64,000 nt of DNA from an uncultured Gammaproteobacteria bacterium (GCA_965230895.1 OZ246394.1:1441887-1505886), one strand, 5' to 3'; positions 23,158-39,358 are shown, numbered from the stretch's first letter. Program-made: numbers and translations. The notes: a model not told the origin generated them from the letters alone.

Positions 23158-23161
23158 GGTT

Positions 23162-23932: not shown

Positions 23933-24034
23933 AGTTCCTCCTTATTCTATAGTACGCAGGAATTGGAAGGGATGTCAAGGTAACGAAGCGGTTCTTTGTG
24001 GTGCACGTTAAACGAATGAGAAATATATTTCAAA

Positions 24035-24994
24035 TTATATCCTAGTATATCTTACTGATCTACCTTTGCCTTGAGTAAAGAGCAATCCTAATGAGGTTAA
24101 TTTTGCTAAATCACGTGAAGCAGTAATTTGCGAAATATGGAAAATCTTTTGGACGGTGCGATTTGTGATGACAGTTTTGGGATCATCAAGTAATGTCATT
24201 ATTGTTTTTTGTCGTTCATTAAGTTCTCCAATCTTTTCTTGAACCGGCAATTTTTCAGTTTGGGATAATTGTGAATAAGTAAGCTCAAGACTTTGAGAAA
24301 GAGTCTTTACAAAATACTCAACCCAACTCGTTACATTAGGCTTTGCTACAGCTGTTTGATAATGACCCAGAAAAATCTTATGTTCTTCAGCCCAAGGCTT
24401 TTCTAGAACCATAAGCCCTCGACAATCTATACCACCTCTGTACAAAAAGAGATAACTGCAAAGAGTCGAGAACATATCTGCTTTTATCCCTGGAGGTAAA
24501 AGGCTTCTGTATAAAAGTTTTGCGATTGCACCTTGGACATATGGATTATCTGAACTTACTTGGAGATATGTAGTAATTTCCTGGAGATGTTTTTCGGTTG
24601 TTGCTGATTTTTCTCCACCAATATAATCATATATTTGCATAATGTTTTTTACGTGTACTGGATTAGGGTTTAAAGTCCAATCCCTTTTGATATAGTCAAG
24701 AGACTGTTTGTATCCTAAAACAGTATTTTGTATCAGATCTCTTTTCTGAGGATTTTTTTGCATTGCAAAAACAATTTGATTAGACAAAATTGATTTTATT
24801 TTTTCTCGCAGAACTGGGATTTCTGTTTCTGTTAATCCAAAATAAATGCGGTCCATTGTCGCTGCAAACTGGACGGTCAATTCCTTCTTTGGCTCCATAG
24901 GGTAGAGGATGATTTGTTTGCGTGCCACTTCAGCTTTTTCAAGAAAGCGAAGCATGTATGGTGAGATAGCATAGACGATATCGAGCATAAGCAA
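24035..24994 (-). CDS. Hypothetical cytoplasmic protein with C-terminal winged-helix DNA-binding domain (Fic-family-like architecture, canonical HPFx[DE]GNGR motif not recognisable)
   Basis: 319-aa ORF. C-terminal ITNRTVQKIFHISQITASRDLAKLTSLGLLFTQGKGRSVRY looks like a wHTH. Divergent from giant gene 1. Confidence 0.5.
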   Translation of the reverse strand: MLMLDIVYAISPYMLRFLEKAEVARKQIILYPMEPKKELTVQFAATMDRIYFGLTETEIPVLREKIKSILSNQIVFAMQKNPQKRDLIQNTVLGYKQSLDYIKRDWTLNPNPVHVKNIMQIYDYIGGEKSATTEKHLQEITTYLQVSSDNPYVQGAIAKLLYRSLLPPGIKADMFSTLCSYLFLYRGGIDCRGLMVLEKPWAEEHKIFLGHYQTAVAKPNVTSWVEYFVKTLSQSLELTYSQLSQTEKLPVQEKIGELNERQKTIMTLLDDPKTVITNRTVQKIFHISQITASRDLAKLTSLGLLFTQGKGRSVRYTRI

Positions 24995-25189
24995 AAAGTA
25001 CCAAAATCCACAAAAACCGTCAAGGTATCAGAACATTAAACAATTTTTTGTAAAGTGATATTGTGATATCGATTACATCAGTTGATTTTAAAAGATTTTT
25101 CACGGAGATTTTTGTCCTGCATAGGGACATTTTTTGTTTGCAAAACGACTCAGAAGACAAACTTATCCATTTGAAGCTAGATCAGTAAA

Positions 25190-25270
25190 TAATGATAAGA
25201 TTAAGATAAGATAATACTCAGCCTTGACAAGCCATATTAATATATGTAGTAATAAATATACTGGCAAAAG
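25190..25270 (+). promoter_or_regulatory. Conserved promoter/operator module, copy 1: GATAAGAT direct repeats, -35 TTGACA (25224-25229), invariant 18-mer ATTAATATATGTAGTAAT containing an extended -10-like TGTAGTAAT
   Basis: The same architecture and the identical 18-mer occur upstream of all three giant genes, 89-99 nt from TTGACA to ATG. Confidence 0.65.
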
Positions 25271-25318
25271 TTAAGCAAACCTATCCATTTGTGCGTGAAA
25301 ACTAGCCGGTGCTGCCCA

Positions 25319-28300
25319 ATGAACGAATCACTGCTCACAATACAGGAAGCTGCGAAGCTATTAGGAGTTTCTCCAACAACGCTTCGTCGCTGGGAAGAAC
25401 GAAAGGTTCTTCTTCCGTATCGAACTGCTGGAAACCAGCGAAGATATTCTCGAGAACAGCTTTTAGCCTTCAAAAAGAATGGTTACAGACCAGTCCAAAT
25501 GGCCTCCGTAGCTCCGTCTGATGCTCCAAAGGTGAATGAACCTATCGTTACTCCGATGCATCAAGCACAAGCTTCTGTTGACCAACTCATCACTCCTCAA
25601 TCTCCAGTCCAAACAACAGCTAATCCAATCTTAGTAACGCAGACTCAAAATGAGGCTAATGTCCAAGTTTCTGATATAGTTAGTCAAGCTCAAGAGAGGG
25701 TCGTTTCGGGGTACAAAATGCCATCCCGCTTGCCAAATGTCCGTGAGCTATCTCCAATGGCGGGTGTATTTGCTGCGCTTGTCGTCTTCGTTGGATTTGT
25801 CCTTGCAGCATCGTTAGCTCCTACATGGGGTGAAGATTTAGATAGGCTTGGTAAAGGATTCCCAAGAGATGGAGCAAGCGCTCAGCAAGTTCTGGCTGCA
25901 AATGACAATACGCCTTTATTTGTTTTGAAAGTTAATGTTCCGAGTGTCTTTGGAAAGAAAGCTTCATTCCTCGATAGCGTCGATATTAGCAAAGGCTTAA
26001 CCGTGGGAGGCGTTGCTACGATGAGTGGCGGGATCATTACCAACAATGCTGACATCAATGCTGGAACTGGTCGGTTAACTGCATCAAACGTAGTCTATTC
26101 AGTACTCGCAGGCAATAATATCTCGATTACTGGTGACCCTCAAAATCCTACCATTTCAGCTGACTTCGGTGGAGGAGTAGTGAGTTCATTCCAAGGGCAA
26201 AGTGGAGCGGTTTCTTTGCTTCAAGGCTCGGGAATTGGACTTGATGGTTTGACGATCACAAACACAGGCGTACTTTCCGTTCAAGGTCAATCCGGTGCAG
26301 TTAATTTCACTGGAGGAGCAGGAATTACGCTCAATAATCTTACTATAACAAACAGTGATCCAGGTTCAGCTCAAAAGATCTTCAGTACGTTCAACATAGA
26401 TGGCACTCCTGTGGCTGCTAGCTCTAATACTGATACCTTCAATTTCGCTGCTGGAAGCGGAATTACGCTCAGTACAAATACTACAGACAAAATTTTGACT
26501 ATCTCGGCGAACGGAGGAGCCACAAGTCAATGGACAACTACAGGATCAGATATATATTATAACTTGGGTAATGTAGGCATAGGAAATTCAGCTCCAGGTA
26601 CAACGTTGGATGTCACTGGAGATGGAAGGTTTTCTGGTACGCTTACCGTCTCAGGCTTAAGTACAGGAATTGTCAAAGCAGATGGATCAGGATTACTCTC
26701 AACAAGCGCATTGAATCTAGCTGGAGGAGCTTCAGAAATAACTGGAGTTTTGCCTGTAGCAAATGGAGGTACAGGTTTATCTTCAATTCCTACAAATGGT
26801 CAACTTCTTATAGGTAATGGAACTGACTACACATTGGGCAACCTAACAGGCACAGTCAATCAGATTACTATAAGCAATGGTGCTGGCTCAATTACTTTTT
26901 CAACTCCTCAAGATATTCATACTGCAGCCTCACCAACGTTTGCAACTATGAACTTAACCAACAGCACAAACCAGCTTGTATTTGGAACTGGAACAACTGG
27001 CACGATCAGTATGGATCCATTAACCACAAATCGTACCTATACATTCCCGGATGCAAGTGGAACTGTTTGTTTAACTTCGGGAAATTGTAGTGGTGGAGGT
27101 GGTGGAGGTATATCGGGTGCTGGGACAACGAACTATATCGCCAAGTTCACCAGCTCGAGCGGTATATCGGATTCTTCGATTTACGATAATGGAAAAGTTG
27201 GTATAGGAACTACAAGCCCGGAAGGGCTTTTAACTGTTTCTGGGGGACCTGCTGGCAAGGCTCTTGCAGTGTTTAATTACACTGGGTCAGGACAAAATAT
27301 TTTGACTGCTTCAGCCTCTGGAACCACAAGACTTACAATCAACAGTTCCGGGGACCTAAATATCATCGGTGGTGCGTATCAAATTAATGGCACTTCAGTT
27401 TTAACTAGTAACACGCTTGGTTCAGGGATAGTCAATTCTTCACTTACTTCAGTTGGTGCACTTGACTCAGGTTCAATCACTGCAGGTTTTGGCAACATTA
27501 ACGTGGGTATGGACAGTATCAGTGGAGGCGATATAACTTCAGTTGGTCCTGTAGGATTTGTCTCAACAGGAAATGGTGCAGGCTTATCGTTCTCAGGTAC
27601 TGGAAACCACGACATAACAGCATCTTCAGGTGTGCTTCGATTAGGCGCTGTGACATTAACTGGTGCGCTTACTGGGAATGGCCAAAATGTCACAGGCTTA
27701 AATAATCTTTCTGCTGGAGGTACCGTAACCTTTGGTGGGCTTGGAACGGGTATCGTTCAAAGTAATGGTTCAGGAGTACTTTCAAGTGGTGCTTTGAACT
27801 TGGCTGGAGGAGCTTCCTACGTAACTGGAGTTCTCCCTGTGACAAATGGTGGTACAGGATTGAATTCATTCAATACAGGGGACCTTATCTTTGCCTCTGC
27901 AAGTAATACATTGGCTGCATTGCCAATCGGTACTGAAGGCCAGGTCCTTGCTGTTTCTGGAGCGGGAACTCCTACATGGATTTCTACCGGAACACTTAAT
28001 TATTGGCAGCGAGCAAACGGTGCACTTGCTCCATTAAATATCTCTGATGATCTTCTTGTAGGGGGTGTCTCAACAGCTTCCGCGAAATTTCAGATCTTTG
28101 GAATCTCAGGTAATGCATCAACTTCCGGAACCTTCACGTTTAATACTGCAGGCGTGATTCAAAGTACCAATAACCATGGTATTACAATTGGAGGTTCGAC
28201 AACAGGAAATATTACCTTGTCTCCACAAAATGGTTCTGGGACAGTCACTTCAACAGGGAATCTTAATCTTCTTTCGGGTAAGGTATATCAGATTAATGGA

Positions 28301-31300
28301 TCAAATGTCTTAACCTCATCAACACTTGGTTCTAGTGTCACTGCATCTTCATTGACATCGGTTGGTACATTGACTGGTGGTTCAATTGCCTCAGGATTTG
28401 GTACTATCGCTACTGCCAACACCATCACTGGTACAACGTTGAATGGCACAACTGGGATCAATACAGGTGCAGGTGGTGGAACGCAAAGAATTGACACTTC
28501 TGGTAACCTTACAAATATCGGAACAACCCAATTGAATGGCATCACTTATACATGGCCAGGTTCAGCGGGAGGAAGCAACAATGTTCTAACTTCTGATGGC
28601 AGTGGTGGTTTGAGTTGGAATGATGTAACTACATTACCAGGCGTAGGTGATATAACAGCAATTGGAGATGTTCTTTCTGGCCCTGCATTCACTGCTGGTG
28701 GTACGCAAGGAACCTCTTTGTACTTCTATGATGCAGATGGACGGGGACAACTTACTATAGCGAACCTAACTGCTGCTCGAACATATACATTACCTGATGC
28801 TTCCGGCACAATCTGCCTTGATTCTGGGAACTGTGCAGGATCAGGTGGTGGGATTGTTGGTACAGGTACAGCGGGTCAATTAGCTTTCTTTAATGGTACA
28901 GGTACAATAACATCTGAGACTTCAGGCTTTGCATGGGATGCAACAAATAAAAAGCTTGGCATTGGTACGGATACTCCAACAGGCAAGCTTACAGTTTCTG
29001 GTGCAGCTGCTGGGAAAGCGTTAGCTATATTTGATGAGCTTGGTGATCAGGACATATTCTCAGCTTCAGCTTCAGGAATTACACAATTGAGATTAGCTCG
29101 AAATGGTGACTTGGCAATTGAAGGAATGCTTTCTGATCTTACGCAAAATGCATTAACAGTGAATGACAACTTGAATTTAGTCTCAGGCAACGCATTCCAG
29201 ATAAATGGCACAAATGTTTTGAGCTCATCGACACTTGGCTCAGGGGTTGTTAGCTCCTCATTGACTTCCGTTGGAGCTCTTTCATCGGGTTCAATTGCAA
29301 ATGGGTTTGGCAGTATCTTTACTTCAAATACTATTCAAGGTAGTGACATCACTGCTTCTGGAACAACAGGATTTACTGCTTCCGGCAATGGTGCTGGTTT
29401 AACCTTCTCAGGCACGGGTAATCATAGCATAAGTGCATCATCCGGAACCCTCCAGATCGGAGCCGCGACGTTGACTGGTGACTTAACTGGTAACAGCCAA
29501 AGTATCGTCGGAGTAAACAATTTGTCTGCGAGTGGCACAATTACTTTTGGAGGTTTGTCGACAGGGATTGTAAAGAGTAACGGCTCTGGTATCCTTTCTT
29601 CAAGCGCAGTCAACCTAGCTTCAGGTGATATCACTGGTACGCTTGGAGTTGCAAATGGTGGTACAGGTATAACTTCAGTTGGTGGTGCTGGTGGAGTAGC
29701 TTACTCCAATGGATCAACCTTTGCCTTCACAGCAGCAGGATTAAGTGGTCAGGTGTTAGTTTCAAATGGTACAGGCGCACCTTCATGGACTGACCCATCA
29801 ACGCTCGGAACAAATTATTGGCAACGAAATTCAGGTTTGCTTGCACCTCTTAATATAGCTGATGATTTGGCTGTTGGTGGATCAAGTACAGGATCAGCGA
29901 AGTTCCAGATCTTTGGCGGGACAGGTAATGCTTCAACTTCAGGTACGCTAACGTTCAATACTGCAGGCACTATCCAGACAACCAATAATCAAACCTTAAC
30001 CTTCGGAGGCGCGAGTACCGGCAATATCGTCTTCTCACCATTAAATGGTGCGGGTACTGTATTAGTTAATGGTAGTATGAATCTTTCTTCAGGTAATACA
30101 TATCAGATTAATGGAACAACTGTGTTATCTGCAACAACTCTTGGGACGGGAGTTGTCAATTCTTCGCTTACAAATGTCGGAATTTTGACTGGAGGCTCTA
30201 TTGCTTCCGGATTTGGAACAATCGCTACTGCCAATACAATTACCGGTACTACTATAAATGGAACGACTGGAATTAATACCGGTGCAGGAGCTGGTACACA
30301 ACGAATTACTAATAATGGTAATTTGGTTAATATCGGAACAACCCAATTAAATGGTGTAACGTATACCTGGCCAAGTGCAGATGGATCATCTGATTATGTG
30401 CTGACAACTGACAGCAGTGGTGGATTAACATGGAAGAATGTAACATCTGTCGGTGGAGCAGGTGATATAACAGCGATTGGAGATGTCACTTCAGGAGCGG
30501 CATTTACAGCTGCTGGTACACAAGGAACCTCTTTGTATTTCTATGATACAGATGGACGTGGTCAAGTAACCATTGCAAACCTCACAGCGCCTCGAACATA
30601 CACATTGCCTGATGCTTCCGGCACCGTTTGTCTCGATTCCGGTAACTGTGCTGGATCTGGTGGTGGTTTGACGGGAAGTGGAACTGCGGGACAAGTTGCA
30701 TTCTTCAATGGGACTGGTACTTTGACATCTGAAACATCAGGATTTGCTTGGGATGCAACAAATAAGAAGCTTGGTATTGGTACAAATACTCCAACCGGTA
30801 AATTGACGGTTTCTGGAGGTGCGACAGGAAAAGCACTTGCAGTCTTCGATGAAACAGGTGATCAGGATATCATTACTGCGTCTGCGTCAGGTACAACACA
30901 GTTTGTTCTTAACCGAAATGGTAATCTCGCAATTGAAGGTCAGCTTTCCGATCTCTCTCAGAATACACTTACTGTTAATGACAATTTGAACCTCACAACC
31001 GGAAATGAGTTCCAAATCAACAGCGCAAGCATCTTGAGTGCTTCAACTCTTGGTTCAAGTGTCATCAATTCATCTTTGACGTCAGTTGGAGCTTTGACGA
31101 GTGGCTCTATTGCTTCAGGCTTTGGTACTATATTAACAACTAATACCATCCAGGGTTCAGATATTACCGCATCAGGAGCTACAGGGTTTACCGCTTCTGG
31201 TAATGGAGCTGGATTGACGTTCTCAGGCACGGGTAATCATATCGTAAGTGCATCATCTGGAACACTCCAATTTGGTGCAGCCACATTGACTGGTGCAATC

Positions 31301-34300
31301 ACTGGAAATGGCCAAAATGTCACTGGCTTGAACAATCTTTCAGCTGGTGGAACGATCACATTTGGTGGACTTTCTACAGGAGTCGTCAAGAGCAACGGTT
31401 CAGGCGTTCTTTCATCAAGTGCGATTGGCTTAAATACAGGCGATGTTACGGGAACACTTCCAGTTGGCAATGGTGGAACTGGCCAAACAAGCTTCACAAC
31501 CAACGGAGTAGTATATGGTAATGGTTCAAGTGCGTTGTCCGTAACATCCGCACCAACTGGTGGACAAGTACTTCTCGGGAACAACTCCGGAGTTCCAACA
31601 TTCACCACTATTTCAGGTGGTGTAACTATTAGTAATACTGGTGTTGCAACGATTGCATTATCATCTTCAGGCGATACCGGTAATACAAGTTCAAACTCAG
31701 GATTGGAATTCAATACAACTGATGGATTATCACTCCTTAGAGGTTGTGCAAATGACGAAATCCTTAAATGGAATGATTCCTCAAAGACATGGGTATGTGC
31801 GACTGATGCTGGTGGTTCTGGATCTGCTGGTACTATTAATGTTCAGAATAATGAAGTTGGGATTGGATCCAATGTCGATACAATTGACTTTGGTACAGAC
31901 TTTACTGTCGCAGCATCTCCATCAAATGAAGCAAATGTCTCAATCGCTGATGATGTCTTGGATTTCTCAGAATTCATCGACAACATGACATTGGATGCAA
32001 ATACAAGCATTGCTACAGCGAACTTTAACTTAACACTCGGAACAAACGCTGGGACAGGCGGAGTCGTTGTTTCTCCAAATGCAGGTGGTAATGCAGCCTT
32101 GATCGTTAACAAGCAGGGAACAGGTGATATCTTCACGGCTTCTGCTTCAGGTACAACCCGATTGACCTTGAGCAATTCTGGTAACTTAAATATTGTTGGT
32201 GGTAGTTATCAAATTGGTGGTACAAATGTTTTGAGTAGTAGCACCCTTGGATCAGGTGTCATAGCTTCTTCTTTGACAAGTGTTGGGGCATTGAACTCCG
32301 GTTCAATAACTTCAGGCTTTGGAGCAATTGATACAGGAACTGATGCTATCTCTGGTGGAGACATCACTGCAACTGGAACGACTGGCTTTACCGCTTCTGG
32401 TAACGGCGCAGGTCTCACATTCTCAGGAACAGGTAACCATTCAATTTCAGCTTCAGCTGGAACCTTGCAGTTGGGCGCAACCACATTGACCGGAGCAATC
32501 ACAGGAAATGGTCAAAATGTTACAGGTTTGAACAATTTCTCAGCTGGCGGAACGGTAACCTTTGGAGGATTTACAACCGATGGCGGCTTACTCTACACAA
32601 ATGGTTCAGGCGTTCTCGCTCAGACATCTGCGGGGACAGGCGGACAATGTTTGGTCTCCAACGGTGGTGGCGCACCAACATGGGGAGCATGTGCTGGTGG
32701 TTTGGCTAATTATTGGAATTTAGCAAATGGTGTTATTACACCACAGAATTCAACTGTTGATTTCTTAATTGGTGGCCAAGCTACAAGTTCAGCAAAGTTC
32801 GCTGTCTTAAATGTTAATTCAGGAACACCAACAGCATCTGTCTCAGCTGGAGCGACAGGTGGTCTTTCAATCGCAGCAGATGGCACAATTGGCACAACAA
32901 ATCGACAATCATTAACTCTTGGTAACAGTTCAACAGGTAATATCGTCTTGAATGGATTTGGAGCTGGTATCGTTAAGACCACTGCTTCAGGTGTACTCTC
33001 AAGTTCAGCACTTAATTTAGCTTCAGCAGAAGTTACTGGTACACTTGGTGTCGGCAATGGTGGAACTGGCCAAACAAGCTTCACAACAAATGGCGTTGTC
33101 TACGGAAATGGTTCAAGTGCGTTGTCTGTAACCTCTGCGCCAACTGGCGGCCAAATCTTGATGGGCAATAACTCTGGAGTTCCTACATTCACAACCGTTT
33201 CAGGTGGCCTTACCTTGAGTGATACAGGCGTTGCTTCAATTGTCTTAACTTCATCAAACGATACTGCGAACACGAGCTCTAATTCAGGACTGGAGTTCAG
33301 TACAGCAAATGGCTTGTCATTGCTTCGGGGATGCAACAATGGCCAGATCTTGAAATGGAATGAAACTTCAAAGCTTTGGGAATGTGGTTCTGACGCTGGT
33401 GGAACCGGTGGCCCTGCAGGTGTTGTCAATGTTGAGAACAATGACTCAGGTGTTGGTACAGATGTTGATACCATTGATTTCAGTTCAGATTTCTTGGTCA
33501 CAGCATCTCCATCAACAGAAGCAAATGTTTCAATTGCTGATGATGTTATTGACTTCACAGAACTTGCTGATAGCTTGAGCCTTGATGCTGCAACACAAAT
33601 TGCCTTAAATAACTTCAACCTCACACTCGGAACAAACGCTGGTACAGGTGGAGTTATTGTTGCTCCAAATGCTGGCGGCAATGCTGCATTAATCATCAAC
33701 AAGCAGGGGACAGGCGACATCTTTACAGCTTCAGCTTCAGGTACCACTCGATTGGCTTTGACAAATAGTGGAGACTTGAACATCATCGGTGGCGCATATC
33801 AGATTGGTGGTACAAGTGTCTTGAGTAGTAACACGCTTGGTTCAGGTGTAGTTAATTCATCTTTGACAAGTGTTGGTGCATTGAACTCCGGTTCAATAAC
33901 TTCAGGCTTTGGAGCAATTGATACAGGTACAGATAATATCTCCGGAGGCAATCTCACTGCTACAGGAACGACTGGTTTCATCGCTTCAGGCAATGGTGCA
34001 GGTTTGACATTCTCAGGCACAGGCAATCATGACATCACAGCATCTGGTGGTACACTCCGATTGGGTGCAGCGACATTGACTGGGGCAATCACAGGAAACG
34101 GTCAAAATGTCACTGGTATTGCGAACCTGGGTGCAACCGGAACTGTAACCTTTGGCAGCTTCACAACAGATGGTGGTTTGCTCTACACAAATGGTTCAGG
34201 CGTAGTCGCACAAACTGCACAAGGCACAGCTGGTCAATGTCTTCTCTCAAATGCAGGTGGCGCACCAACATGGGGTTCATGTACTGGCGGCTTAGCTAAT

Positions 34301-37300
34301 TATTGGAACCAAAATAACGGTGCATTGTCTGCAATGAATTCTACCGTTGATTTGCTTGTCGGTGGACAATCATCCGCTTCAGCAAAGTTTGCTGTCTTGA
34401 ATGTTAACTCAGGAACACCAACAGCATCTGTATCAGCTGGAGCAACTGGTGGTATCTCAATTGCAGCGGATGGAACAATCGGTACAACAGCCCGCCAATC
34501 ACTTACACTTGGCAATAGCACCACAGGCAACATTGTCTTAAATGGATTTGGAGCTGGCATAGTGAAGACCAGTGCTTCAGGCGTTCTTTCATCAAGTGCG
34601 ATCGGTTTGAATACAGCGGATGTCACTGGTACCTTGCCAGTTGGTAATGGTGGTACTGGAGCAACATCGTTTACAGCCGGTGGTGTCCTTTATGGAAATG
34701 GTTCAAGTGCAGTAGCAGCTTCTTCTCAAGGAACAGCTGGCCAAGCATTACTCTCCGGCGGTACTGGCGCACCAACATGGACAACTGGGACACTTTCACT
34801 CGCTGGTAATTTCACAACGGCAGGTGCAAATGCTTTGACACTTACCACAACTGGCGCAACAAATGTCACGCTTCCAACCACCGGAACGCTTGCCACATTG
34901 GCTGGTACTGAGACGCTCAGTGGTAAGACACTCACTGCTCCACGAATTGCAAATGGTGGATTCATCGCTGACGCCAATGGTAATGAACAATTGATCTTCA
35001 ATACAACAGCATCAGCAATCAACGAATTAACGCTCACCAATGCAGCGGCAAGTGGTGTCGTTACCCTCGCTGCAACAGGCGGTGACACTAATATTCCATT
35101 TGCAATCGATGCAAAGGGGACGGGAGAACTTAGATTGAATGGAACCGGAACTGGTAACATATTGCTTGGTGGTGGATTCGGATCAACAGGTTGTACGCTT
35201 ACAAATTCATCTGGAGCATTTGCATGTAACGGCGCAATCACAGGTTCAAATATCTCTGGTTCAACTTCAGGAACCAACACTGGTGATCAGACAATTACCT
35301 TGACTGGTGATGTCACGGGAAGTGGTACAGGTTCATTTGCGACAACAATCGCGGACAATTCAGTCGATGGTACAGATATTGCACTAGGCTCAGATACTGC
35401 GGGTGATTTAATGTACTACAACGGAACTGATTGGGTCCGATTAGCTGCAGGTACTGGAAACCAAGTGTTGCATTCCGGTTCAACACCATCTTGGGGTGCA
35501 CTTGATTTGACGACTCAAGTGACAGGAACTCTTCCAATTGCCAATGGCGGTACAAATTCAACTGCGACACCAACCAATGGTGGTATCGCATATGGTACTG
35601 GCACAGCATTTGCCTTTACTTCTGCCGGAACCGGTGGACAATGTCTCCAATCAAATGGAGCCGCTGCACCGACATGGGGAACTTGTACAGGAGGATTGGC
35701 TAACTACTGGAATCTCTCAAATGGTACTTTGGCCCCAGTAAATACAACACTTGATCTTTTGGTAGGTGGGACAAGTTCATCTTCAGCGAAATTTGCAGTT
35801 TTGAATGTTAATTCAGGAACACCAACAGCGTCAGTCTCAGCTGGTTCAGCTGGCGCAGCATACTTAACAGCAGCTGGTGCATTGCAAACGACTGCAAATC
35901 AAACACTCTCTCTTGGTGGTAACACAACTGGCAACATAGTCTTGAATGGTGATGGCAGTGATCGAGTCGGTGTTGGTGTTTCAACTCCAGTTGCTATGTT
36001 TAATATTGGTGAATACTCAGATTCTGTTGTTTCTCTTGCTCTTGGAAACGATGCAAATGCAGCTAATTATGGTTTAGCTGCGTTCAATAATAACTTAAAG
36101 CTTGTTGCTCCTTCAGGATTTAGATTTATGACAGGCACACCAGGTGGAACTGAAGTAATGACTATCACTGGAGGTAATTTGGGTGTTGGAGTAACTTCTC
36201 CAACCGCAAAGCTTGATGTTAACGGAGCAGCATCCGTCTCAGGTTCATTAACCTTCCGAACTGGAGCAGGCACAATTCAAACGACTGCAAATAACACATT
36301 AACGCTTGGTGGTAATACAACAGGAAACATCGTCTTCAACCCATTGAACGGAGCAGGCACAGTCCGAATCACATCGTTGGCTAACTGTAACACGATTGAT
36401 ACTGACGCAAATGGTGTTCTCTCCTGTGGAACTGATGAGAGTGGTGGAGTTCAGAACTACTGGAATCTTTCAAATGGAGCACTCTCTCCAGTCAATAGTA
36501 CCGCTGATCTTTTAGTTGGTGGGGCAGCTTCATCATCAGCAAAGTTTGCAGTTCTGAATGTGAACTCAGGTACACCAACAGCATCTGTATCAGCTGGTTC
36601 AGCAGGCGGTGCATCATTAACAGCAACCGGTGTCCTGGGGACAACAGCGCGCCAATCCTTAACGTTGGGTAACAGTACAACCGGTAACATCGTCTTGAAT
36701 GGATTCACGACTGGCGTGGTAAAGAGCAATGCTTCAGGCGTTCTTTCATCAAGTGCAATCGGTTTGAATACAGCGGATGTCACTGGTACCTTGCCAGTTG
36801 GTAATGGTGGTACTGGAGCAACATCGTTTACAGCCGGTGGTGTCCTTTATGGAAATGGTTCAAGTGCAGTAGCAGCTTCAACACAAGGTACAAGTGGGCA
36901 AGTGCTTCTTTCCGGAGGGACAGGCGCTCCAACATGGACAACTGGTACATTGACCTTGGCGGGCAATTTCAGTACATCAGGTGCAAATGCATTGACGCTT
37001 ACAACAACAGGTGCAACTAATGTGACTTTGCCTACAACTGGTACATTGGCAACGCTTGCTGGTACAGAAACACTCAGTGGTAAGACACTCACAGCGCCAC
37101 GATTTGTAAATGGTGGATTCATCGCTGATGCCAATGGCAATGAACAATTAATCTTTAATACGACAGCATCAGCAATCAATGAATTGACGTTAACGAATGC
37201 CGCTGCTAGTGGAGTTGTCACTTTGGCAGCAACAGGTGGAGACACCAACATTCCATTCGCAATTGATGCAAAGGGGACGGGAGAACTCCGATTGAATGGA

Positions 37301-39358
37301 ACAGGAACCGGTAATATCTTGCTTGGTGGTGGATTCGGCTCAACAGGGTGTACGCTTACAAATTCATCTGGAGCATTTGCATGTAATGGAGCGATCACAG
37401 GTTCAAACATTTCTGGTTCAACTTCTGGAACAAATACTGGCGACCAGACGATCACGTTAACAGGAGACGTTACTGGATCAGGCACAGGATCTTTTGGTAC
37501 AACCATTGCAGATAATGCTGTTGATGGTACAGACATCTCACTTGCTTCTGAGGCACAAGGCAATATCATGTACTTCGATGGAACTGATTGGGTACGATTG
37601 GCAAATGGTACAGGCAATCAAGTGCTTCACTCCGGTACAACTCCATCATGGGGAGCAGTGGATCTCACAACTCAAGTTACTGGGACACTTCCAATCGCAA
37701 ATGGTGGTACAAATTCAACAGCAACTCCAACCAATGGCGGAATCGCTTATGGAACTGGAACTGCATTTGCATTCACAAGTGCAGGAAGCGGTGGACAATG
37801 TCTCCAATCAAATGGAGCAGCAGCTCCAACATGGGGATCATGTGGCGGTGGTATTTCAAATTACTGGAATATCAACCAAGGCACAATTGCTCCTGTAAAT
37901 ACAACACTCGACTTGTTGGTTGGTGGCACAAGTTCATCATCAGCGAAGTTTGCAGTATTGGGCATAAATTCAGGCACACCAACAGCATCTGTTTCAGCAA
38001 CAGCTTCAGGCAATGGACTCTCACTTGGTGGCGATGCAGTGATCCAGTCACTTCGAAATAACACATTAACTATCGGTGGAAATACGACTGGCAACATCAC
38101 ATTGTCACCTTTGAATGGAAGTGGTACAGTCACTTCAACTGGCGATCTTAACCTCGCTACTGGTAAAGTATTCCAGATTAATGGAGCATCAGTTCTCTCA
38201 TCAACAACCCTTGGTACAAGTGTCGTATCATCATCTCTTACAACAGTTGGAGCTTTGAATGCAGGTTCAATTACATCCGGATTTGGAGCAATTGATGTCG
38301 GCTCAGATAACATTGCTGGAGGAGACATCACTGCAAGTGGAACTACTGGTTACATCGCTTCAGGCAACGGTGCTGGCTTAAACTTCTCAGGAGCAAGTAC
38401 CCATACAATTCAAGCGTCAGCAGGTACATTGCAGATCAACGCTTTCACCATGGGTGGAGCAATTACAGGGGGAGGAAATAACATCACTGGCCTTGGGCAG
38501 CTTACTGTTGATAACTTAAGACTTGATGGAAACACATTAGATACAACTTCTGGTGATCTTACAATTGCAGCAAGTGGTGGTGATATCATCTTCTCAGATA
38601 CAAATACACTTAATATTGGTGGCAATGTTTCAGACGTTGCATACAATATCATTGGCGACACTATCTCAGGTGCAAATGGAAATATGAATTCAGACGATGA
38701 TTTGTTCGTCGAAGGAGATTTGCAAGTTGCTGGTACACTCTTTGCGAATGTCACAACAGGTTTGGCTGCAAATTCACTCGTCTTCACTGGAACCAATGGT
38801 GTGCTTTCTGTTGATAGCTCTAACTTCTCAGTGAATAACACAACCAAGAGAATTGGTATTGGTACAAATTCACCTTTGGCATCGCTTGATGTTCGAGCAA
38901 CTTCTGGTACTGTGCCAGCAGCATCAGTTTCAGGTACAACTGCAATGGCAGCAATGATCGTCGATAATAATGGTGTAGGTGATCTCTTCACAGCAAGTAA
39001 GTCTGGTGCAACGAAGTTCGTAGTCACAAATGCAGGGAGAGTTGGTATTGGGACAGGGACACCATCAACGACTGCATTACTTGATGTTGAAGGACAGATT
39101 CAATCAAGTGAATTACAACTGACATCAGGAGGAGTAATCGGATGGAATTATTACAATAATGGACTTGATCGATACCTCGCAACAGGAGAAGCATTCCAAT
39201 GGTGGCAGAATGGAGCAAACCTTAACCTTATGTCAGCAGGGAGTGGAGCAGCAAACAGTCAGATCGTCTTCAAGACAGCAATGACTATCAATGCAAGCGG
39301 CAATGTCGTCGTAAACAATGATGGTAACGCACAGGATTTCCAGGTTAAAAGGAGATAA
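25319..39358 (+). CDS. Giant surface protein 1, part 1: N-terminal MerR-type HTH, one TM helix, about 4,500 aa of nested tandem G/T/S/N-rich repeats. The ORF-track start at 25289 is a TTG; the ATG at 25319 matches the start context of paralog 2.
   Basis: LTIQEAAKLLGVSPTTLRRWEERKVLLPYRTAGNQRRYSREQL fits the MerR HTH pattern (TLRxWE..G.L.P.R...G.R.Y). TM LSPMAGVFAALVVFVGFVLAASLAP. Long uninterrupted frame. Paralogous to 45391.. and 54607.. Confidence 0.85.
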   Translation: MNESLLTIQEAAKLLGVSPTTLRRWEERKVLLPYRTAGNQRRYSREQLLAFKKNGYRPVQMASVAPSDAPKVNEPIVTPMHQAQASVDQLITPQSPVQTTANPILVTQTQNEANVQVSDIVSQAQERVVSGYKMPSRLPNVRELSPMAGVFAALVVFVGFVLAASLAPTWGEDLDRLGKGFPRDGASAQQVLAANDNTPLFVLKVNVPSVFGKKASFLDSVDISKGLTVGGVATMSGGIITNNADINAGTGRLTASNVVYSVLAGNNISITGDPQNPTISADFGGGVVSSFQGQSGAVSLLQGSGIGLDGLTITNTGVLSVQGQSGAVNFTGGAGITLNNLTITNSDPGSAQKIFSTFNIDGTPVAASSNTDTFNFAAGSGITLSTNTTDKILTISANGGATSQWTTTGSDIYYNLGNVGIGNSAPGTTLDVTGDGRFSGTLTVSGLSTGIVKADGSGLLSTSALNLAGGASEITGVLPVANGGTGLSSIPTNGQLLIGNGTDYTLGNLTGTVNQITISNGAGSITFSTPQDIHTAASPTFATMNLTNSTNQLVFGTGTTGTISMDPLTTNRTYTFPDASGTVCLTSGNCSGGGGGGISGAGTTNYIAKFTSSSGISDSSIYDNGKVGIGTTSPEGLLTVSGGPAGKALAVFNYTGSGQNILTASASGTTRLTINSSGDLNIIGGAYQINGTSVLTSNTLGSGIVNSSLTSVGALDSGSITAGFGNINVGMDSISGGDITSVGPVGFVSTGNGAGLSFSGTGNHDITASSGVLRLGAVTLTGALTGNGQNVTGLNNLSAGGTVTFGGLGTGIVQSNGSGVLSSGALNLAGGASYVTGVLPVTNGGTGLNSFNTGDLIFASASNTLAALPIGTEGQVLAVSGAGTPTWISTGTLNYWQRANGALAPLNISDDLLVGGVSTASAKFQIFGISGNASTSGTFTFNTAGVIQSTNNHGITIGGSTTGNITLSPQNGSGTVTSTGNLNLLSGKVYQINGSNVLTSSTLGSSVTASSLTSVGTLTGGSIASGFGTIATANTITGTTLNGTTGINTGAGGGTQRIDTSGNLTNIGTTQLNGITYTWPGSAGGSNNVLTSDGSGGLSWNDVTTLPGVGDITAIGDVLSGPAFTAGGTQGTSLYFYDADGRGQLTIANLTAARTYTLPDASGTICLDSGNCAGSGGGIVGTGTAGQLAFFNGTGTITSETSGFAWDATNKKLGIGTDTPTGKLTVSGAAAGKALAIFDELGDQDIFSASASGITQLRLARNGDLAIEGMLSDLTQNALTVNDNLNLVSGNAFQINGTNVLSSSTLGSGVVSSSLTSVGALSSGSIANGFGSIFTSNTIQGSDITASGTTGFTASGNGAGLTFSGTGNHSISASSGTLQIGAATLTGDLTGNSQSIVGVNNLSASGTITFGGLSTGIVKSNGSGILSSSAVNLASGDITGTLGVANGGTGITSVGGAGGVAYSNGSTFAFTAAGLSGQVLVSNGTGAPSWTDPSTLGTNYWQRNSGLLAPLNIADDLAVGGSSTGSAKFQIFGGTGNASTSGTLTFNTAGTIQTTNNQTLTFGGASTGNIVFSPLNGAGTVLVNGSMNLSSGNTYQINGTTVLSATTLGTGVVNSSLTNVGILTGGSIASGFGTIATANTITGTTINGTTGINTGAGAGTQRITNNGNLVNIGTTQLNGVTYTWPSADGSSDYVLTTDSSGGLTWKNVTSVGGAGDITAIGDVTSGAAFTAAGTQGTSLYFYDTDGRGQVTIANLTAPRTYTLPDASGTVCLDSGNCAGSGGGLTGSGTAGQVAFFNGTGTLTSETSGFAWDATNKKLGIGTNTPTGKLTVSGGATGKALAVFDETGDQDIITASASGTTQFVLNRNGNLAIEGQLSDLSQNTLTVNDNLNLTTGNEFQINSASILSASTLGSSVINSSLTSVGALTSGSIASGFGTILTTNTIQGSDITASGATGFTASGNGAGLTFSGTGNHIVSASSGTLQFGAATLTGAITGNGQNVTGLNNLSAGGTITFGGLSTGVVKSNGSGVLSSSAIGLNTGDVTGTLPVGNGGTGQTSFTTNGVVYGNGSSALSVTSAPTGGQVLLGNNSGVPTFTTISGGVTISNTGVATIALSSSGDTGNTSSNSGLEFNTTDGLSLLRGCANDEILKWNDSSKTWVCATDAGGSGSAGTINVQNNEVGIGSNVDTIDFGTDFTVAASPSNEANVSIADDVLDFSEFIDNMTLDANTSIATANFNLTLGTNAGTGGVVVSPNAGGNAALIVNKQGTGDIFTASASGTTRLTLSNSGNLNIVGGSYQIGGTNVLSSSTLGSGVIASSLTSVGALNSGSITSGFGAIDTGTDAISGGDITATGTTGFTASGNGAGLTFSGTGNHSISASAGTLQLGATTLTGAITGNGQNVTGLNNFSAGGTVTFGGFTTDGGLLYTNGSGVLAQTSAGTGGQCLVSNGGGAPTWGACAGGLANYWNLANGVITPQNSTVDFLIGGQATSSAKFAVLNVNSGTPTASVSAGATGGLSIAADGTIGTTNRQSLTLGNSSTGNIVLNGFGAGIVKTTASGVLSSSALNLASAEVTGTLGVGNGGTGQTSFTTNGVVYGNGSSALSVTSAPTGGQILMGNNSGVPTFTTVSGGLTLSDTGVASIVLTSSNDTANTSSNSGLEFSTANGLSLLRGCNNGQILKWNETSKLWECGSDAGGTGGPAGVVNVENNDSGVGTDVDTIDFSSDFLVTASPSTEANVSIADDVIDFTELADSLSLDAATQIALNNFNLTLGTNAGTGGVIVAPNAGGNAALIINKQGTGDIFTASASGTTRLALTNSGDLNIIGGAYQIGGTSVLSSNTLGSGVVNSSLTSVGALNSGSITSGFGAIDTGTDNISGGNLTATGTTGFIASGNGAGLTFSGTGNHDITASGGTLRLGAATLTGAITGNGQNVTGIANLGATGTVTFGSFTTDGGLLYTNGSGVVAQTAQGTAGQCLLSNAGGAPTWGSCTGGLANYWNQNNGALSAMNSTVDLLVGGQSSASAKFAVLNVNSGTPTASVSAGATGGISIAADGTIGTTARQSLTLGNSTTGNIVLNGFGAGIVKTSASGVLSSSAIGLNTADVTGTLPVGNGGTGATSFTAGGVLYGNGSSAVAASSQGTAGQALLSGGTGAPTWTTGTLSLAGNFTTAGANALTLTTTGATNVTLPTTGTLATLAGTETLSGKTLTAPRIANGGFIADANGNEQLIFNTTASAINELTLTNAAASGVVTLAATGGDTNIPFAIDAKGTGELRLNGTGTGNILLGGGFGSTGCTLTNSSGAFACNGAITGSNISGSTSGTNTGDQTITLTGDVTGSGTGSFATTIADNSVDGTDIALGSDTAGDLMYYNGTDWVRLAAGTGNQVLHSGSTPSWGALDLTTQVTGTLPIANGGTNSTATPTNGGIAYGTGTAFAFTSAGTGGQCLQSNGAAAPTWGTCTGGLANYWNLSNGTLAPVNTTLDLLVGGTSSSSAKFAVLNVNSGTPTASVSAGSAGAAYLTAAGALQTTANQTLSLGGNTTGNIVLNGDGSDRVGVGVSTPVAMFNIGEYSDSVVSLALGNDANAANYGLAAFNNNLKLVAPSGFRFMTGTPGGTEVMTITGGNLGVGVTSPTAKLDVNGAASVSGSLTFRTGAGTIQTTANNTLTLGGNTTGNIVFNPLNGAGTVRITSLANCNTIDTDANGVLSCGTDESGGVQNYWNLSNGALSPVNSTADLLVGGAASSSAKFAVLNVNSGTPTASVSAGSAGGASLTATGVLGTTARQSLTLGNSTTGNIVLNGFTTGVVKSNASGVLSSSAIGLNTADVTGTLPVGNGGTGATSFTAGGVLYGNGSSAVAASTQGTSGQVLLSGGTGAPTWTTGTLTLAGNFSTSGANALTLTTTGATNVTLPTTGTLATLAGTETLSGKTLTAPRFVNGGFIADANGNEQLIFNTTASAINELTLTNAAASGVVTLAATGGDTNIPFAIDAKGTGELRLNGTGTGNILLGGGFGSTGCTLTNSSGAFACNGAITGSNISGSTSGTNTGDQTITLTGDVTGSGTGSFGTTIADNAVDGTDISLASEAQGNIMYFDGTDWVRLANGTGNQVLHSGTTPSWGAVDLTTQVTGTLPIANGGTNSTATPTNGGIAYGTGTAFAFTSAGSGGQCLQSNGAAAPTWGSCGGGISNYWNINQGTIAPVNTTLDLLVGGTSSSSAKFAVLGINSGTPTASVSATASGNGLSLGGDAVIQSLRNNTLTIGGNTTGNITLSPLNGSGTVTSTGDLNLATGKVFQINGASVLSSTTLGTSVVSSSLTTVGALNAGSITSGFGAIDVGSDNIAGGDITASGTTGYIASGNGAGLNFSGASTHTIQASAGTLQINAFTMGGAITGGGNNITGLGQLTVDNLRLDGNTLDTTSGDLTIAASGGDIIFSDTNTLNIGGNVSDVAYNIIGDTISGANGNMNSDDDLFVEGDLQVAGTLFANVTTGLAANSLVFTGTNGVLSVDSSNFSVNNTTKRIGIGTNSPLASLDVRATSGTVPAASVSGTTAMAAMIVDNNGVGDLFTASKSGATKFVVTNAGRVGIGTGTPSTTALLDVEGQIQSSELQLTSGGVIGWNYYNNGLDRYLATGEAFQWWQNGANLNLMSAGSGAANSQIVFKTAMTINASGNVVVNNDGNAQDFQVKRR
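25328..25480 (+). other. MerR-type helix-turn-helix domain at the cytoplasmic N-terminus of giant protein 1 (equivalents at about 45400-45550 and about 54616-54760)
   Basis: TIQEAAKLLGVSPTTLRRWEERKVLLPYRTAGNQRRYSREQLL fits the MerR/HTH_17 pattern. Conserved in all three paralogs and immediately followed by about 100 aa of linker and one TM helix. Confidence 0.7.
34589..35840 (+). repeat. Near-identical 1.25-kb segment, copy A (pairs with 36746..37995; offset 2157 nt, 719 codons)
   Basis: Long runs of identical nucleotides, e.g. tcatcaagtgc.atcggtttgaatacagcggatgtcactggtaccttgccagttggtaatggtggtactggagcaacatcgtttacagccggtggtgtcctttatggaaatggttcaagtgcagtagcagcttc in both copies. Confidence 0.85.
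36746..37995 (+). repeat. Near-identical 1.25-kb segment, copy B
   Basis: See copy A. Protein identity is above 95% over about 415 aa. Confidence 0.85.

What the first reader, a model, noticed from the sequence alone, without database searches (positions are those of the whole stretch)
27999..34650. Nested in-frame tandem duplications of 1.8-kb and 1.59-kb coding units inside giant gene 1
The landmark NYWQRANGALAPLNISDDLLVGG... recurs at about 27999 and about 29813, a unit of about 604 aa. The landmark GTGQTSFTTNGVVYGNGSSALSVTSAPTGGQ recurs at 31481 and 33068, an offset of exactly 1587 nt or 529 codons, with about 85-90% amino-acid identity between units. The ectodomain has therefore grown by whole-module duplication at several scales. 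This is a hallmark of rapidly evolving surface fibres or adhesins and a substrate for length variation by unequal recombination.
Basis: seen in the sequence. Interest (0 to 1): 0.6.

Follow-up and report, generated by a model that had tools for sequence, protein, structure and literature searches.

The report
Ancient super-repeats in giant surface gene
A 14-kb gene of an uncultured Levybacteria bacterium, probably encoding a membrane-anchored surface fibre, really does contain large in-frame tandem duplications, but they are old, conserved copies reshuffled by recombination, which is the usual way giant repetitive surface proteins evolve.

Summary
ORF 25289/25319..39358 (4,689 aa) holds three serial, in-frame tandem arrays. 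A has a 605-codon unit (about 2.3 copies, 75% aa identity). B has a 529/530-codon unit (about 2.2 copies, 76%, not 85-90%). Chance identity is 10%.

The arrays lie side by side rather than nested. Each is built from older modules shared among the arrays (43-48% identity).

The copies are ancient (dS about 1-1.7) and under purifying selection (dN/dS 0.12-0.18). A sister-species ortholog (L003, 5,632 aa) has them too.

That ortholog carries 611 and 270 extra in-frame residues, with crossover points inside repeated modules. A roughly 150-nt tract is 99% identical between C1 and C2 in the window only. Unequal recombination and gene conversion are therefore supported; "rapidly evolving" is not.

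The protein has a cytoplasmic MerR-type HTH, one TM helix and about 4,500 aa with no known domain. This architecture recurs in Patescibacteria.

A 1-nt frameshift at 39346-39349 cuts off 597 further codons that end in a carbohydrate-binding-module-like tip.

This is a new member of a known kind, of moderate interest.

The parts
25319..39358 (+). Giant gene 1, as an open frame of 4,689 aa counted from the TTG at 25289. The likely real start is the ATG at 25319 (MNESLLTIQEAAKLL...).
   Evidence: the ORF listing. Translation. The ortholog L003 has the same N-terminus.
25331..25480 (+). N-terminal MerR/excisionase-type helix-turn-helix, aa 15-64.
   Evidence: Pfam PF00376, 43.3 bits against a cutoff of 28.2; PF12728, 42.5 bits against 27. 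NCBIfam TIGR01764.
25757..25822 (+). The only predicted transmembrane helix, aa 157-178 (MAGVFAALVVFVGFVLAASLAP).
   Evidence: Kyte-Doolittle 19-aa scan. It is the only segment above 1.6 in the 4,689 aa.
27467..31591 (+). Array A, unit of 605 codons (1815 nt), about 2.3 copies. Partial A0 is 27467-27907, A1 is 27908-29722 and A2 is 29723-31537. Module order is b-c-d-l-k-e-d-f.
   Evidence: Diagonal scan. A1/A2 are 75% aa and 69% nt identical, dS 1.70, dN/dS 0.12. The repeat finder families D7, D11 and D15.
31310..34825 (+). Array B, unit of 529/530 codons (1587/1590 nt), about 2.2 copies. B1 is 31310-32896 and B2 is 32897-34486. Module order is a-h-e-d-f-b-c.
   Evidence: B1/B2 are 76% aa and 73% nt identical, dS 1.04, dN/dS 0.18.
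34223..38095 (+). Array C, offset of 719 codons (2157 nt). C1 is 34223-35938, a 147-aa non-repeated spacer is 35939-36379, and C2 is 36380-38095.
   Evidence: C1/C2 are 84% aa and 76% nt identical, dS 0.98, dN/dS 0.135.
34573..34722 (+). Gene-conversion tract, with its partner at 36730-36879. It includes a 122-nt exact repeat at 34601/36758.
   Evidence: Exact-repeat list. Identity is 97-100% between the window's copies but about 75% to both L003 orthologs.
32576..32608 (+). Approximate crossover zone 1 relative to ortholog L003, which carries 611 extra aa here.
   Evidence: The sliding identity switches from offset +6 to offset +617 at aa about 2430-2440.
34016..34048 (+). Approximate crossover zone 2 relative to ortholog L003, which carries 270 extra aa here.
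   Evidence: The sliding identity switches from offset +617 to offset +887 at aa about 2910-2920.
39346..39358 (+). Frameshift site: an A4 run at 39346-39349 followed by the stop codon at 39356-39358. Removing one A joins ...DFQVK to GDNDANLLFTQGSTDRVGIGT... of the next ORF.
   Evidence: Sequence. Three-frame translation. An uninterrupted equivalent motif exists in L020. The same shift is present in two independent Logan assemblies.
39318..41111 (+). A 597-aa ORF in the +1 frame, the detached 3' part of giant gene 1. It shares modules with the end of the giant ORF (repeat finder family D8).
   Evidence: Its last 210 aa are 72% identical to the C-terminus of the uninterrupted L003 giant protein. 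D8 repeats.
40380..41108 (+). C-terminal 'tip' domain, an all-beta sandwich of about 243 aa.
   Evidence: AF2 pLDDT 86 and pTM 0.80. Foldseek best hits are CBM61, CBM11, gingipain adhesin domains and tailspike lectin domains, E 1e-5 to 1e-4. There are 1,855 cluster representatives; in every full-length hit among the best 150 listed the match ends at the C-terminus.

Best explanation
Giant gene 1 belongs to a chromosomal cluster of three paralogous giant genes in a Candidatus Levybacteria (Patescibacteria/CPR) genome.

Architecture. It encodes a membrane-anchored protein with the N-terminus inside the cell: a cytoplasmic MerR/excisionase-type HTH, one TM helix, then about 4,500 residues (about 5,100 if the frameshifted 3' ORF is counted). 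This long region is Gly/Thr/Ser/Asn-rich and matches no known domain. It ends in a carbohydrate-binding-module-like beta-sandwich. It is most likely a long extracellular fibre that presents a glycan-binding tip.

How it grew. About three quarters of the protein consists of three serial super-repeat arrays with units of 605, 529/530 and 719 codons. Each arose by in-frame tandem duplication of a block of 5-8 smaller modules of about 50-100 aa. These modules are themselves older repeats shared by all three arrays.

Age and turnover. The duplications predate the split from the sister species and have been kept under purifying selection. The modules still recombine with each other. Unequal crossing-over between non-allelic modules has removed or added in-frame blocks of 611 and 270 aa between the two species. 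A roughly 150-nt gene-conversion tract has recently homogenised C1 and C2.

Shown: the repeats, their age and selection, the ortholog differences with crossover points, the conversion tract, the HTH, the TM helix and the tip fold.

Inferred: the extracellular location, the fibre shape, the adhesin function, and that fibre length is the property being varied.
For: Repeats:
- ORF and translation.
- Three long diagonals at offsets 605, 529/530 and 719 aa with 72-82% gapless identity, also seen at nt level.
- Far above chance: 10% expected, at most 33% in shuffles.

Age and selection:
- Codon-position identities are second position 87-92% and third position 43-53%. dS is 0.98-1.70 and dN/dS 0.12-0.18.

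Module structure:
- The module string is k g e d f | bcdlkedf x2 | ahedfbc x2 | aijbc g bc aijbc | d f g e g.
- Inter-array identity is 43-48%.

Ortholog comparison:
- L003 is syntenic on both flanks and about 79% nt identical. Its gene is 5,632 aa, has the same A, B and C duplications, and has 611 and 270 extra aa.
- The crossover points lie inside repeats.
- The conversion tract is specific to the window lineage.
- C1/C2 within each genome have lower dS (0.90-0.98) than orthologs (1.14-1.30) or cross-paralogs (1.39-1.50), as expected for concerted evolution.

Architecture:
- HTH.
- A single TM helix.
- No Pfam, NCBIfam, PHROG or PDB sequence hit for the rest.
- Tip fold. The tip family's match reaches the C-terminus in every full-length hit among the best 150 listed.

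Family and organism:
- 36 ORFs with the N-terminal HTH, up to 5,988 aa, in Patescibacteria loci.
- Many have their own large tandem duplications, for example L031 (464 aa, 89%) and L029 (730 aa, 80%).
- The ATP synthase beta subunit (AtpD) falls in a 90% cluster with a Candidatus Levybacteria protein. The source contig is 1.61 Mb.
Against: - No experimental or structural evidence shows that the repeat region is extracellular or fibrous. The AF2 monomer model of unit B1 was poor (pLDDT 58.8), so the fold of the repeats is unknown.
- The tip's resemblance to CBMs is modest: TM-score 0.4-0.6, about 10% identity.
- In this genome the tip is separated from the anchored part by a frameshift seen in three assemblies. 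The full fibre-plus-tip protein may not be made here.
- The direction of the 611-aa and 270-aa events (loss here or gain in L003) rests only on paralog divergence (60-69% against 80-86% for orthologs). No outgroup was available.
- dS values are near saturation, so the relative dating is rough.
Confidence: 0.8

Rival explanations
1. Assembly artefact: the tandem units were created, or their number distorted, by misassembly of a repetitive region.
For: Short-read assemblies do break here. Both Logan contigs start at window 37357, inside the 38-nt exact repeat at 35192/37349. Most database homologs are fragments on short contigs.
Against: - The copies are only 69-76% identical at nt level, with four exact repeats longer than 31 nt (the longest 122 nt). 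They cannot be collapsed or falsely duplicated copies.
- The frame stays open over 14 kb.
- An independently assembled sister-species contig has the same A, B and C duplications.
- The source contig is 1.61 Mb.
Confidence: 0.03
2. Only compositional, low-complexity similarity in a Gly/Thr/Ser/Asn-rich protein, with no true positional repeats.
For: The composition is strongly biased: G 17.6%, T 15%, S 11%, A 10%.
Against: Expected identity is 10% and the shuffled maximum is 33% per 60 aa. The observed identity is 72-84% over 490-620 aa on single diagonals with at most 6 gap residues.
Confidence: 0.01
3. A fast contingency locus: recent duplications whose copy number varies between strains, or within a population, to vary fibre length or antigenicity. 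This is what the first reader implied.
For: Module-scale indels separate the two species. There is a recent conversion tract. Relatives carry younger duplications, for example L031 at 89% over 524 aa.
Against: - dS is at least 1 between copies, and all three duplications are shared with the sister species.
- dN/dS is 0.12-0.18, so there is no sign of diversifying selection.
- There are few long exact matches to drive frequent RecA-dependent slippage.
- The Logan contigs from two runs are 100% identical to the window where they overlap.
Confidence: 0.1
4. The protein is mainly a membrane-tethered transcription factor or DNA tether (a ToxR/CadC-like one-component system). The repeat region would be a sensor or spacer rather than an adhesin, and the duplications would tune reach or ligand valency.
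For: The N-terminal HTH scores above the Pfam cutoffs. It is conserved in 36 giant ORFs of the family, sometimes in two copies, and in all three giant genes of the window.
Against: Only the HTH part of MerR is present (profile positions 2-47 of 69 in PF13411), with no effector or dimerisation domain. No DNA target is known. An ectodomain of 4,500 aa is far larger than in any known sensor of this type (own knowledge). This reading is compatible with the fibre model rather than exclusive of it.
Confidence: 0.2

Closest known systems
Giant repetitive bacterial surface adhesins such as Staphylococcus Ebh, Marinomonas MpIBP, the LapA/SiiE RTX adhesins and the Bap/Aap/SasG repeat proteins. (The comparison is from established knowledge; MpIBP is described in PMC5550230.)
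   Same: - Multi-thousand-residue cell-surface protein.
- Most of the length consists of tandem repeats that act as an extender.
- A ligand-binding domain sits at the end far from the anchor.
- Repeat number changes by unequal recombination.
   Different: - The repeat unit here is a super-repeat of 530-720 aa made of 5-8 different modules, not a single Ig-like domain of about 100 aa.
- Copies are 75-84% identical, not near-identical.
- There is no match to BIg, FIVAR, G5 or RTX domains.
- The anchor is an N-terminal TM helix preceded by a cytoplasmic HTH, not a signal peptide with LPXTG, a C-terminal TM helix or T1SS retention.
Titin/obscurin-type super-repeats. (From established knowledge.)
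   Same: Hierarchical growth: blocks of several different modules were duplicated as a unit, giving long-period repeats on top of short-period ones.
   Different: Titin is a eukaryotic, intracellular protein of Ig and Fn3 domains. There is no homology, so the resemblance is analogy only.
Phage tail fibres and tailspikes.
   Same: - Gly/Thr/Ser/Asn-rich beta-type sequence with short recurring motifs.
- The monomer prediction fails, as is usual for obligate trimers.
- The C-terminal beta-sandwich resembles lectin-like domains of tailspikes (CBA120 TSP4, K2-2 TSP) and BFVD tail-fibre models.
- A few distant homologs carry Peptidase_S74 (PF13884).
   Different: - No PHROG hit outside the HTH.
- Only one weak tblastn hit in 50,697 phage records.
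- The gene is chromosomal, between the ATP synthase operon and an M23 peptidase gene, with conserved synteny.
- It is membrane-anchored.
Membrane-tethered one-component regulators such as ToxR, CadC and TcpP. (From established knowledge.)
   Same: The topology is a cytoplasmic N-terminal DNA-binding domain, a single TM helix and an extracytoplasmic C-terminal region.
   Different: - The HTH is MerR/excisionase-type, not OmpR-type winged helix.
- The outer region is 20-50 times larger and repetitive.
- No regulatory role has been shown.
Giant genes of Omnitrophota (bioRxiv 10.1101/2023.11.21.568195).
   Same: Very large genes of uncultured ultra-small bacteria, predicted to be surface-exposed. 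[quoted passage not shown]
   Different: A different phylum and different domains (dockerins, thrombospondin and others). That paper mentions neither MerR nor helix-turn-helix.

Membership tests
In-frame tandem (super-repeat) duplication within a coding gene | Adjacent copies on one diagonal, with the offset a multiple of 3 and the frame kept open. | tested here: met
   Offsets are 1815, 1587/1590 and 2157 nt. There is one open frame of 14,070 nt.
In-frame tandem (super-repeat) duplication within a coding gene | Similarity exceeds what composition alone gives. | tested here: met
   72-84% identity, against 10% expected and at most 33% in shuffles.
In-frame tandem (super-repeat) duplication within a coding gene | Copy number is supported independently of this assembly. 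| tested here: inconclusive
   The sister-species ortholog has the same three duplications, and Logan contigs match the 3' part. No long reads or second assembly of this strain span arrays A to C.
MerR-family transcriptional regulator | N-terminal MerR-type HTH. | tested here: met
   PF00376 at 43.3 bits (cutoff 28.2) and PF13411 at 39.8 bits (cutoff 21.6).
MerR-family transcriptional regulator | A coiled-coil dimerisation helix and a C-terminal effector-binding domain follow the HTH. | tested here: not met
   The PF13411 match covers only profile positions 2-47 of 69. The HTH is followed by a low-complexity linker and a TM helix. NCBIfam full-length MerR-type models (SoxR, HspR) score far below their cutoffs.
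RTX/T1SS giant adhesins (LapA, MpIBP, SiiE) | BIg-type repeats, C-terminal RTX nonapeptide repeats and a T1SS signal. | tested here: not met
   There are no Pfam or NCBIfam hits to such domains anywhere in the 4,689 + 597 aa.
Phage tail fibre / tailspike | Sequence membership in a phage tail-fibre family, or location in a prophage. | tested here: not met
   PHROGs hits are to the HTH only. There is one weak phage tblastn hit. The flanks are housekeeping genes.
Phage tail fibre / tailspike | Trimeric beta-helical or fibrous fold. | not testable with these tools
   Only monomer AF2 was available, and the model of unit B1 had pLDDT 58.8.
Carbohydrate-binding module-like beta-sandwich (C-terminal tip) | Beta-sandwich/jelly-roll fold similar to solved CBMs. 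| tested here: met
   The model has pLDDT 86. Foldseek against TmCBM61 gives E 1.2e-5 and a target-normalised TM-score of 0.59. CBM11, CBM30 and the gingipain adhesin domains also match.
Carbohydrate-binding module-like beta-sandwich (C-terminal tip) | Sequence membership in a CAZy/Pfam CBM family, or conserved sugar-binding residues. | tested here: not met
   There is no Pfam hit for ORF 39318-41108. Identity to CBM structures is about 10%. Ligand binding was not tested.
Patescibacterial HTH-TM giant protein family (unnamed) | N-terminal HTH, a single TM helix and a multi-thousand-residue repeat region sharing the NYW/SAKF, YQING and NGGTG modules. | tested here: met
   Homologs are labelled Patescibacteria or Levybacteria 'MerR family ... 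partial'. 36 HTH-bearing ORFs up to 5,988 aa occur in related loci.

The most novel reading that the evidence does not exclude
The gene represents an undescribed, widespread Patescibacteria-specific class of giant proteins. A cytoplasmic MerR/excisionase-type DNA-binding domain would be physically coupled, through one TM helix, to an extracellular fibre of 2,000-6,000 residues with a lectin-like tip. Contact of the fibre with a host cell would then be transmitted directly to the chromosome or to transcription, or the chromosome would be tethered at the host-contact site. The number of super-repeats would set the reach. The frameshift at AAA-AGG could be a +1 recoding site that controls whether the tip is attached.
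Probability: 0.12. Interest if true: 0.75.

Novelty: new member of a known kind. Interest (0 to 1): 0.38.

Why it matters
Intragenic duplication of modules is the textbook route by which giant surface proteins lengthen, so the finding is ordinary in kind.

Its value lies in three points.
1. It gives a clean example with an ortholog control. Super-repeats of 0.5-0.7 kilo-residues have been kept for a long time under purifying selection while unequal crossing-over and gene conversion still edit them.
2. It shows why such genes are fragmented and mis-annotated in MAGs, for example as 'MerR family transcriptional regulator, partial'.
3. It draws attention to an uncharacterised HTH-TM-giant-fibre architecture and to a C-terminal tip domain family with no Pfam hit (1,855 cluster representatives). 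In Patescibacteria, host-attachment molecules are largely unknown apart from type IV pili (PMC11623550).

Tried and rejected
- A homolog search with the whole 4,689-aa protein timed out. I used unit B1 instead.
- Self-BLASTP returned only the identity hit. I replaced it with an explicit diagonal scan.
- Pfam, NCBIfam, PHROGs and PDB sequence and profile searches found nothing beyond the HTH.
- Rfam and tRNA scans of the window were empty.
- The AF2 monomer of unit B1 had pLDDT 58.8 and was not used for fold search.
A phage tblastn gave one weak hit.
- The metagenome scan gave 57 distant loci (at most 62% identity) and no conspecific strain, so strain-level copy number could not be compared.
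- Literature searches found no description of an HTH-TM-giant architecture in CPR.
- I considered that splitting of these giant genes by frameshifts or stops might be recurrent, because 7 relatives have a second large ORF directly downstream. I rejected this: those ORFs start with their own Met and signal- or TM-like N-termini, and the upstream ORFs end in conserved C-terminal motifs.
- I considered that the 122-nt exact repeat might be a conserved nucleotide element. I rejected this because the L003 orthologs are only about 75% identical there.

Full report

The window contains one open frame, 25289..39358 (+), of 4,689 aa. The likely start is the ATG at 25319.

- NYWQR... lies at aa 904 and 1509, i.e. 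nt 27998 and 29813. The offset is 1815 nt = 605 codons.
- The 31-residue string GTGQTSFTTNGVVYGNGSSALSVTSAPTGGQ lies at aa 2063 and 2592, i.e. nt 31475 and 33062. The offset is 1587 nt = 529 codons.

A full diagonal scan of the protein against itself found three long diagonals.

| Array | Offset (aa) | Segments compared (aa) | Gapless identity |
|---|---|---|---|
| A | 605 | 874-1496 vs 1479-2101 | 72% (a weaker extension runs back to aa 727) |
| B | 529/530 | 2008-2649 vs 2537-3179 | 62-74% |
| C | 719 | 2979-3550 vs 3698-4269 | 82% |

The nucleotide repeat finder shows the same periods: 1815, 1587/1590 and 2157 nt.

Gapped alignments give these values.

| Pair | aa identity | nt identity |
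|---|---|---|
| A1/A2 | 75% | 69% |
| B1/B2 | 76% | 73% |
| C1/C2 | 84% | 76% |

The protein is compositionally biased, yet composition predicts only 10% identity. Five shuffles never exceeded 33% in a 60-aa window.

Four corrections follow.
- The 529-aa units are 76% identical, not 85-90%.
- The arrays are serial, not nested in one another.
- The three arrays together cover aa 727-4269, about three quarters of the ORF.

**2. Anatomy of the repeats**

I marked recurrent motifs as modules. The protein then reads k g e d f | b c d l k e d f (x2) | a h e d f b c (x2) | a i j b c - g - b c a i j b c | d f g e g.

Each large unit is therefore a block of 5-8 different modules of about 50-100 aa. The three kinds of unit share some modules (e-d-f, b-c, a). 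The older relationships are still measurable: the two halves of A1 are 43% identical over 244 aa, A vs B 48% over 399 aa, and B vs C 45% over 450 aa. Duplication at several scales is thus correct in a hierarchical sense.

**3. Age and selection**

Second codon positions are 87-92% identical and third positions only 43-53%. Nei-Gojobori estimates are given below.

| Pair | dS | dN |
|---|---|---|
| A1/A2 | 1.70 | 0.20 |
| B1/B2 | 1.04 | 0.19 |
| C1/C2 | 0.98 | 0.13 |

dN/dS is 0.12-0.18 for these pairs. The duplications are old and every copy is maintained by purifying selection. Only four exact nucleotide repeats longer than 31 nt exist in the whole gene: 122, 50, 38 and 35 nt.

**4. Comparison with a sister species**

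A scan of GTDB species genomes with unit B1 returned 46 loci. The best is L003 (CAZDOJ010000003.1). It is syntenic on both sides and about 79% identical at nt level over window 20793-32859. Its ATP synthase alpha subunit falls in the same 90% cluster.

Its giant gene is uninterrupted and 5,632 aa long, and it contains the same A, B and C duplications. The collinear path is as follows.

| Window (aa) | L003 (aa) | Identity |
|---|---|---|
| 103-2564 | 109-2570 | 86% |
| 2405-3091 | 3022-3708 | 80% |
| 2823-3436 | 3710-4323 | 84% |
| 3671-4205 | 4532-5066 | 81% |

L003 therefore has 611 and 270 additional in-frame residues. At each junction the window sequence matches one L003 copy up to a point and the next copy after it. 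The switches fall at aa about 2430-2440 and about 2910-2920, inside repeated modules. This is the signature of unequal homologous recombination.

The extra L003 blocks are only 60-69% identical to their nearest paralogs, less than the 80-86% seen between orthologs. They therefore probably predate the species split and were deleted in the window's lineage. This direction is an inference, because no outgroup was available.

**5. Ongoing gene conversion**

Window 34573-34722 and 36730-36879 are 97-100% identical, including the 122-nt exact run. The orthologous L003 segments are only about 75% identical to them.

Within-genome C1/C2 dS is 0.98 here and 0.90 in L003. That is lower than for orthologs (1.14-1.30) or cross-paralogs (1.39-1.50). 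Both results point to concerted evolution between C1 and C2.

**6. What the gene encodes**

- Residues 15-64 match MerR/HTH_17/excisionase HTH models above their curated cutoffs.
- Residues 157-178 form the only hydrophobic helix in the protein.
- The remaining roughly 4,500 residues have no Pfam, NCBIfam, PHROG or PDB match, by single sequence or by profile.
- An AF2 monomer model of unit B1 was poor (pLDDT 58.8). This is usual for obligate-oligomer fibres but proves nothing.

The ORF stops just after an A4 run at 39346-39349. Removing one A joins ...NDGNAQDFQVK to GDNDANLLFTQGSTDRVGIGT... of the +1-frame ORF 39318..41111, which is 597 aa. A relative, L020, has the same motif uninterrupted...DFRVEGDTNANLFFTDASADRVGIGTNTP. 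The last 210 aa of the 597-aa ORF are 72% identical to the C-terminus of the uninterrupted L003 protein.

The shifted configuration occurs in two Logan assemblies from different runs, each 100% identical to the window over its whole length. It is therefore not a one-off assembly error. Whether it is a real truncation, a polymorphism or a +1 recoding site (AAA-AGG; AGG makes up 10% of Arg codons) remains open.

The C-terminal 243 aa fold with confidence (pLDDT 86) into a beta-sandwich. It resembles carbohydrate-binding modules (CBM61, CBM11, CBM30), gingipain adhesin domains and the lectin-like domains of phage tailspikes. The scores are modest: E 1e-5 to 1e-4 and TM-score 0.4-0.6. This domain defines a family of 1,855 cluster representatives. 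In every full-length hit among the best 150 listed, the match ends at the very C-terminus, in proteins of up to 5,838 aa.

**7. Context and family**

The flanking genes are housekeeping: LeuRS, ComEA, ComEC, ArgRS, NDK and the ATP synthase operon upstream, and an M23 peptidase downstream. The ATP synthase beta subunit clusters at 90% identity with a Candidatus Levybacteria protein, and the source contig is 1.61 Mb.

The window holds three paralogous giant genes, each starting with the same HTH. They are gene 1, gene 2 (45391..53958, with Kelch repeats) and gene 3 (from about 54.6 kb to beyond the end of the window). Gene 3 is 55% identical to gene 1 over the first 1,100 aa.

Homologs are almost all fragments from Patescibacteria MAGs, often named 'MerR family transcriptional regulator, partial'. 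Across the fetched loci, 36 ORFs carry the N-terminal HTH, some of them twice, with lengths up to 5,988 aa. Many have their own large tandem duplications, for example 464 aa at 89% identity in L031 and 730 aa at 80% in L029.

I found no paper describing this architecture in the held library. Very large surface-targeted proteins with adhesion domains have been noted in other Patescibacteria (PMC13059738). Elongation of giant genes by domain duplication has been suggested for Omnitrophota (bioRxiv 10.1101/2023.11.21.568195).

**8. Mechanism and verdict**

The best-supported reading is a membrane-anchored giant fibre with its N-terminus in the cytoplasm. Its shaft grew by tandem duplication of multi-module blocks. 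Its length is still edited, on evolutionary time scales, by unequal crossing-over and gene conversion between modules. Its far end carries a lectin-like domain suited to binding a surface glycan.

- Shown: the repeats, their age and constraint, the differences from the ortholog with their crossover points, the conversion tract, the HTH, the TM helix and the tip fold.
- Inferred: the extracellular location, the fibre shape, the adhesin role and the role of the HTH.

Its recombination-substrate idea is supported.

In kind this is well known: giant repetitive surface proteins evolve in this way. The particular family is uncharacterised. I rate the finding as a new member of a known kind, of moderate interest.

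Noticed in passing
window 39346-39358 and 39318-41111: A one-base frameshift (an A4 run just before the stop) splits giant gene 1 from a 597-aa continuation that carries the conserved C-terminal tip domain. The same shift is present in two independent Logan assemblies (SRR14271365 and SRR14271372). The ortholog L003 is uninterrupted. The site reads AAA-AGG, so a +1 slip of tRNA-Lys would restore the frame. Whether this is a real truncation, a polymorphism or recoding is undecided.
   Followed up: partly
window 25319-39358, 45391-53958 and about 54604 to beyond 64000: Three consecutive giant genes on the + strand each begin with a MerR/excisionase-type HTH. Gene 3 runs off the end of the window (more than 3,100 aa) and is 55% identical to gene 1 over its first 1,100 aa. 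Gene 2 contains Kelch repeats.
   Followed up: partly
window 40380-41108: The C-terminal beta-sandwich domain has no Pfam, NCBIfam or PHROG hit. It defines a large family: 1,855 representatives at 50% clustering, 421 of them at E < 1e-30. In every full-length hit among the best 150 listed, the match ends at the protein's C-terminus. It is a candidate for a new domain family.
   Followed up: partly
window 37349-37386 (and its copy at 35192-35229): Both Logan short-read contigs end exactly inside this 38-nt exact intragenic repeat. This illustrates why this gene family appears in databases almost only as fragments labelled 'MerR family regulator, partial'.
   Followed up: yes
L003 (CAZDOJ010000003.1) and about 20 other loci: Many MAGs carrying clear Patescibacteria/Levybacteria-type giant genes and synteny are titled 'uncultured Gammaproteobacteria' or 'Pseudomonadales'. 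One 1.41-Mb contig is titled 'Vitreimonas sp.'. The record titles look taxonomically unreliable.
   Followed up: no
window 10657-13720: Two adjacent genes encode proteins with C-terminal type I dockerin domains, one of them also with a CBM_4_9 module (for 10657-11847, for 11957-13720). This is unusual for a genome without an obvious cellulosome context.
   Followed up: no
window 41246-44371: Immediately downstream of giant gene 1 lies a 1,041-aa protein combining Peptidase_M23, DUF2341 and a Laminin_G_3/ConA-like lectin domain. It is syntenic in L003. It is a possible cell-wall-degrading partner of the fibre.
   Followed up: no
L004, L023, L031 and L047 (ends of the giant ORFs): Several relatives' giant proteins end in a different conserved C-terminal motif (...NFNWWIVN*...VVFNWWIIN*...KFNFLIIN*) rather than the ...GDIILNYRSNK* tip. 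This suggests at least two alternative C-terminal domain types in the family.
   Followed up: no
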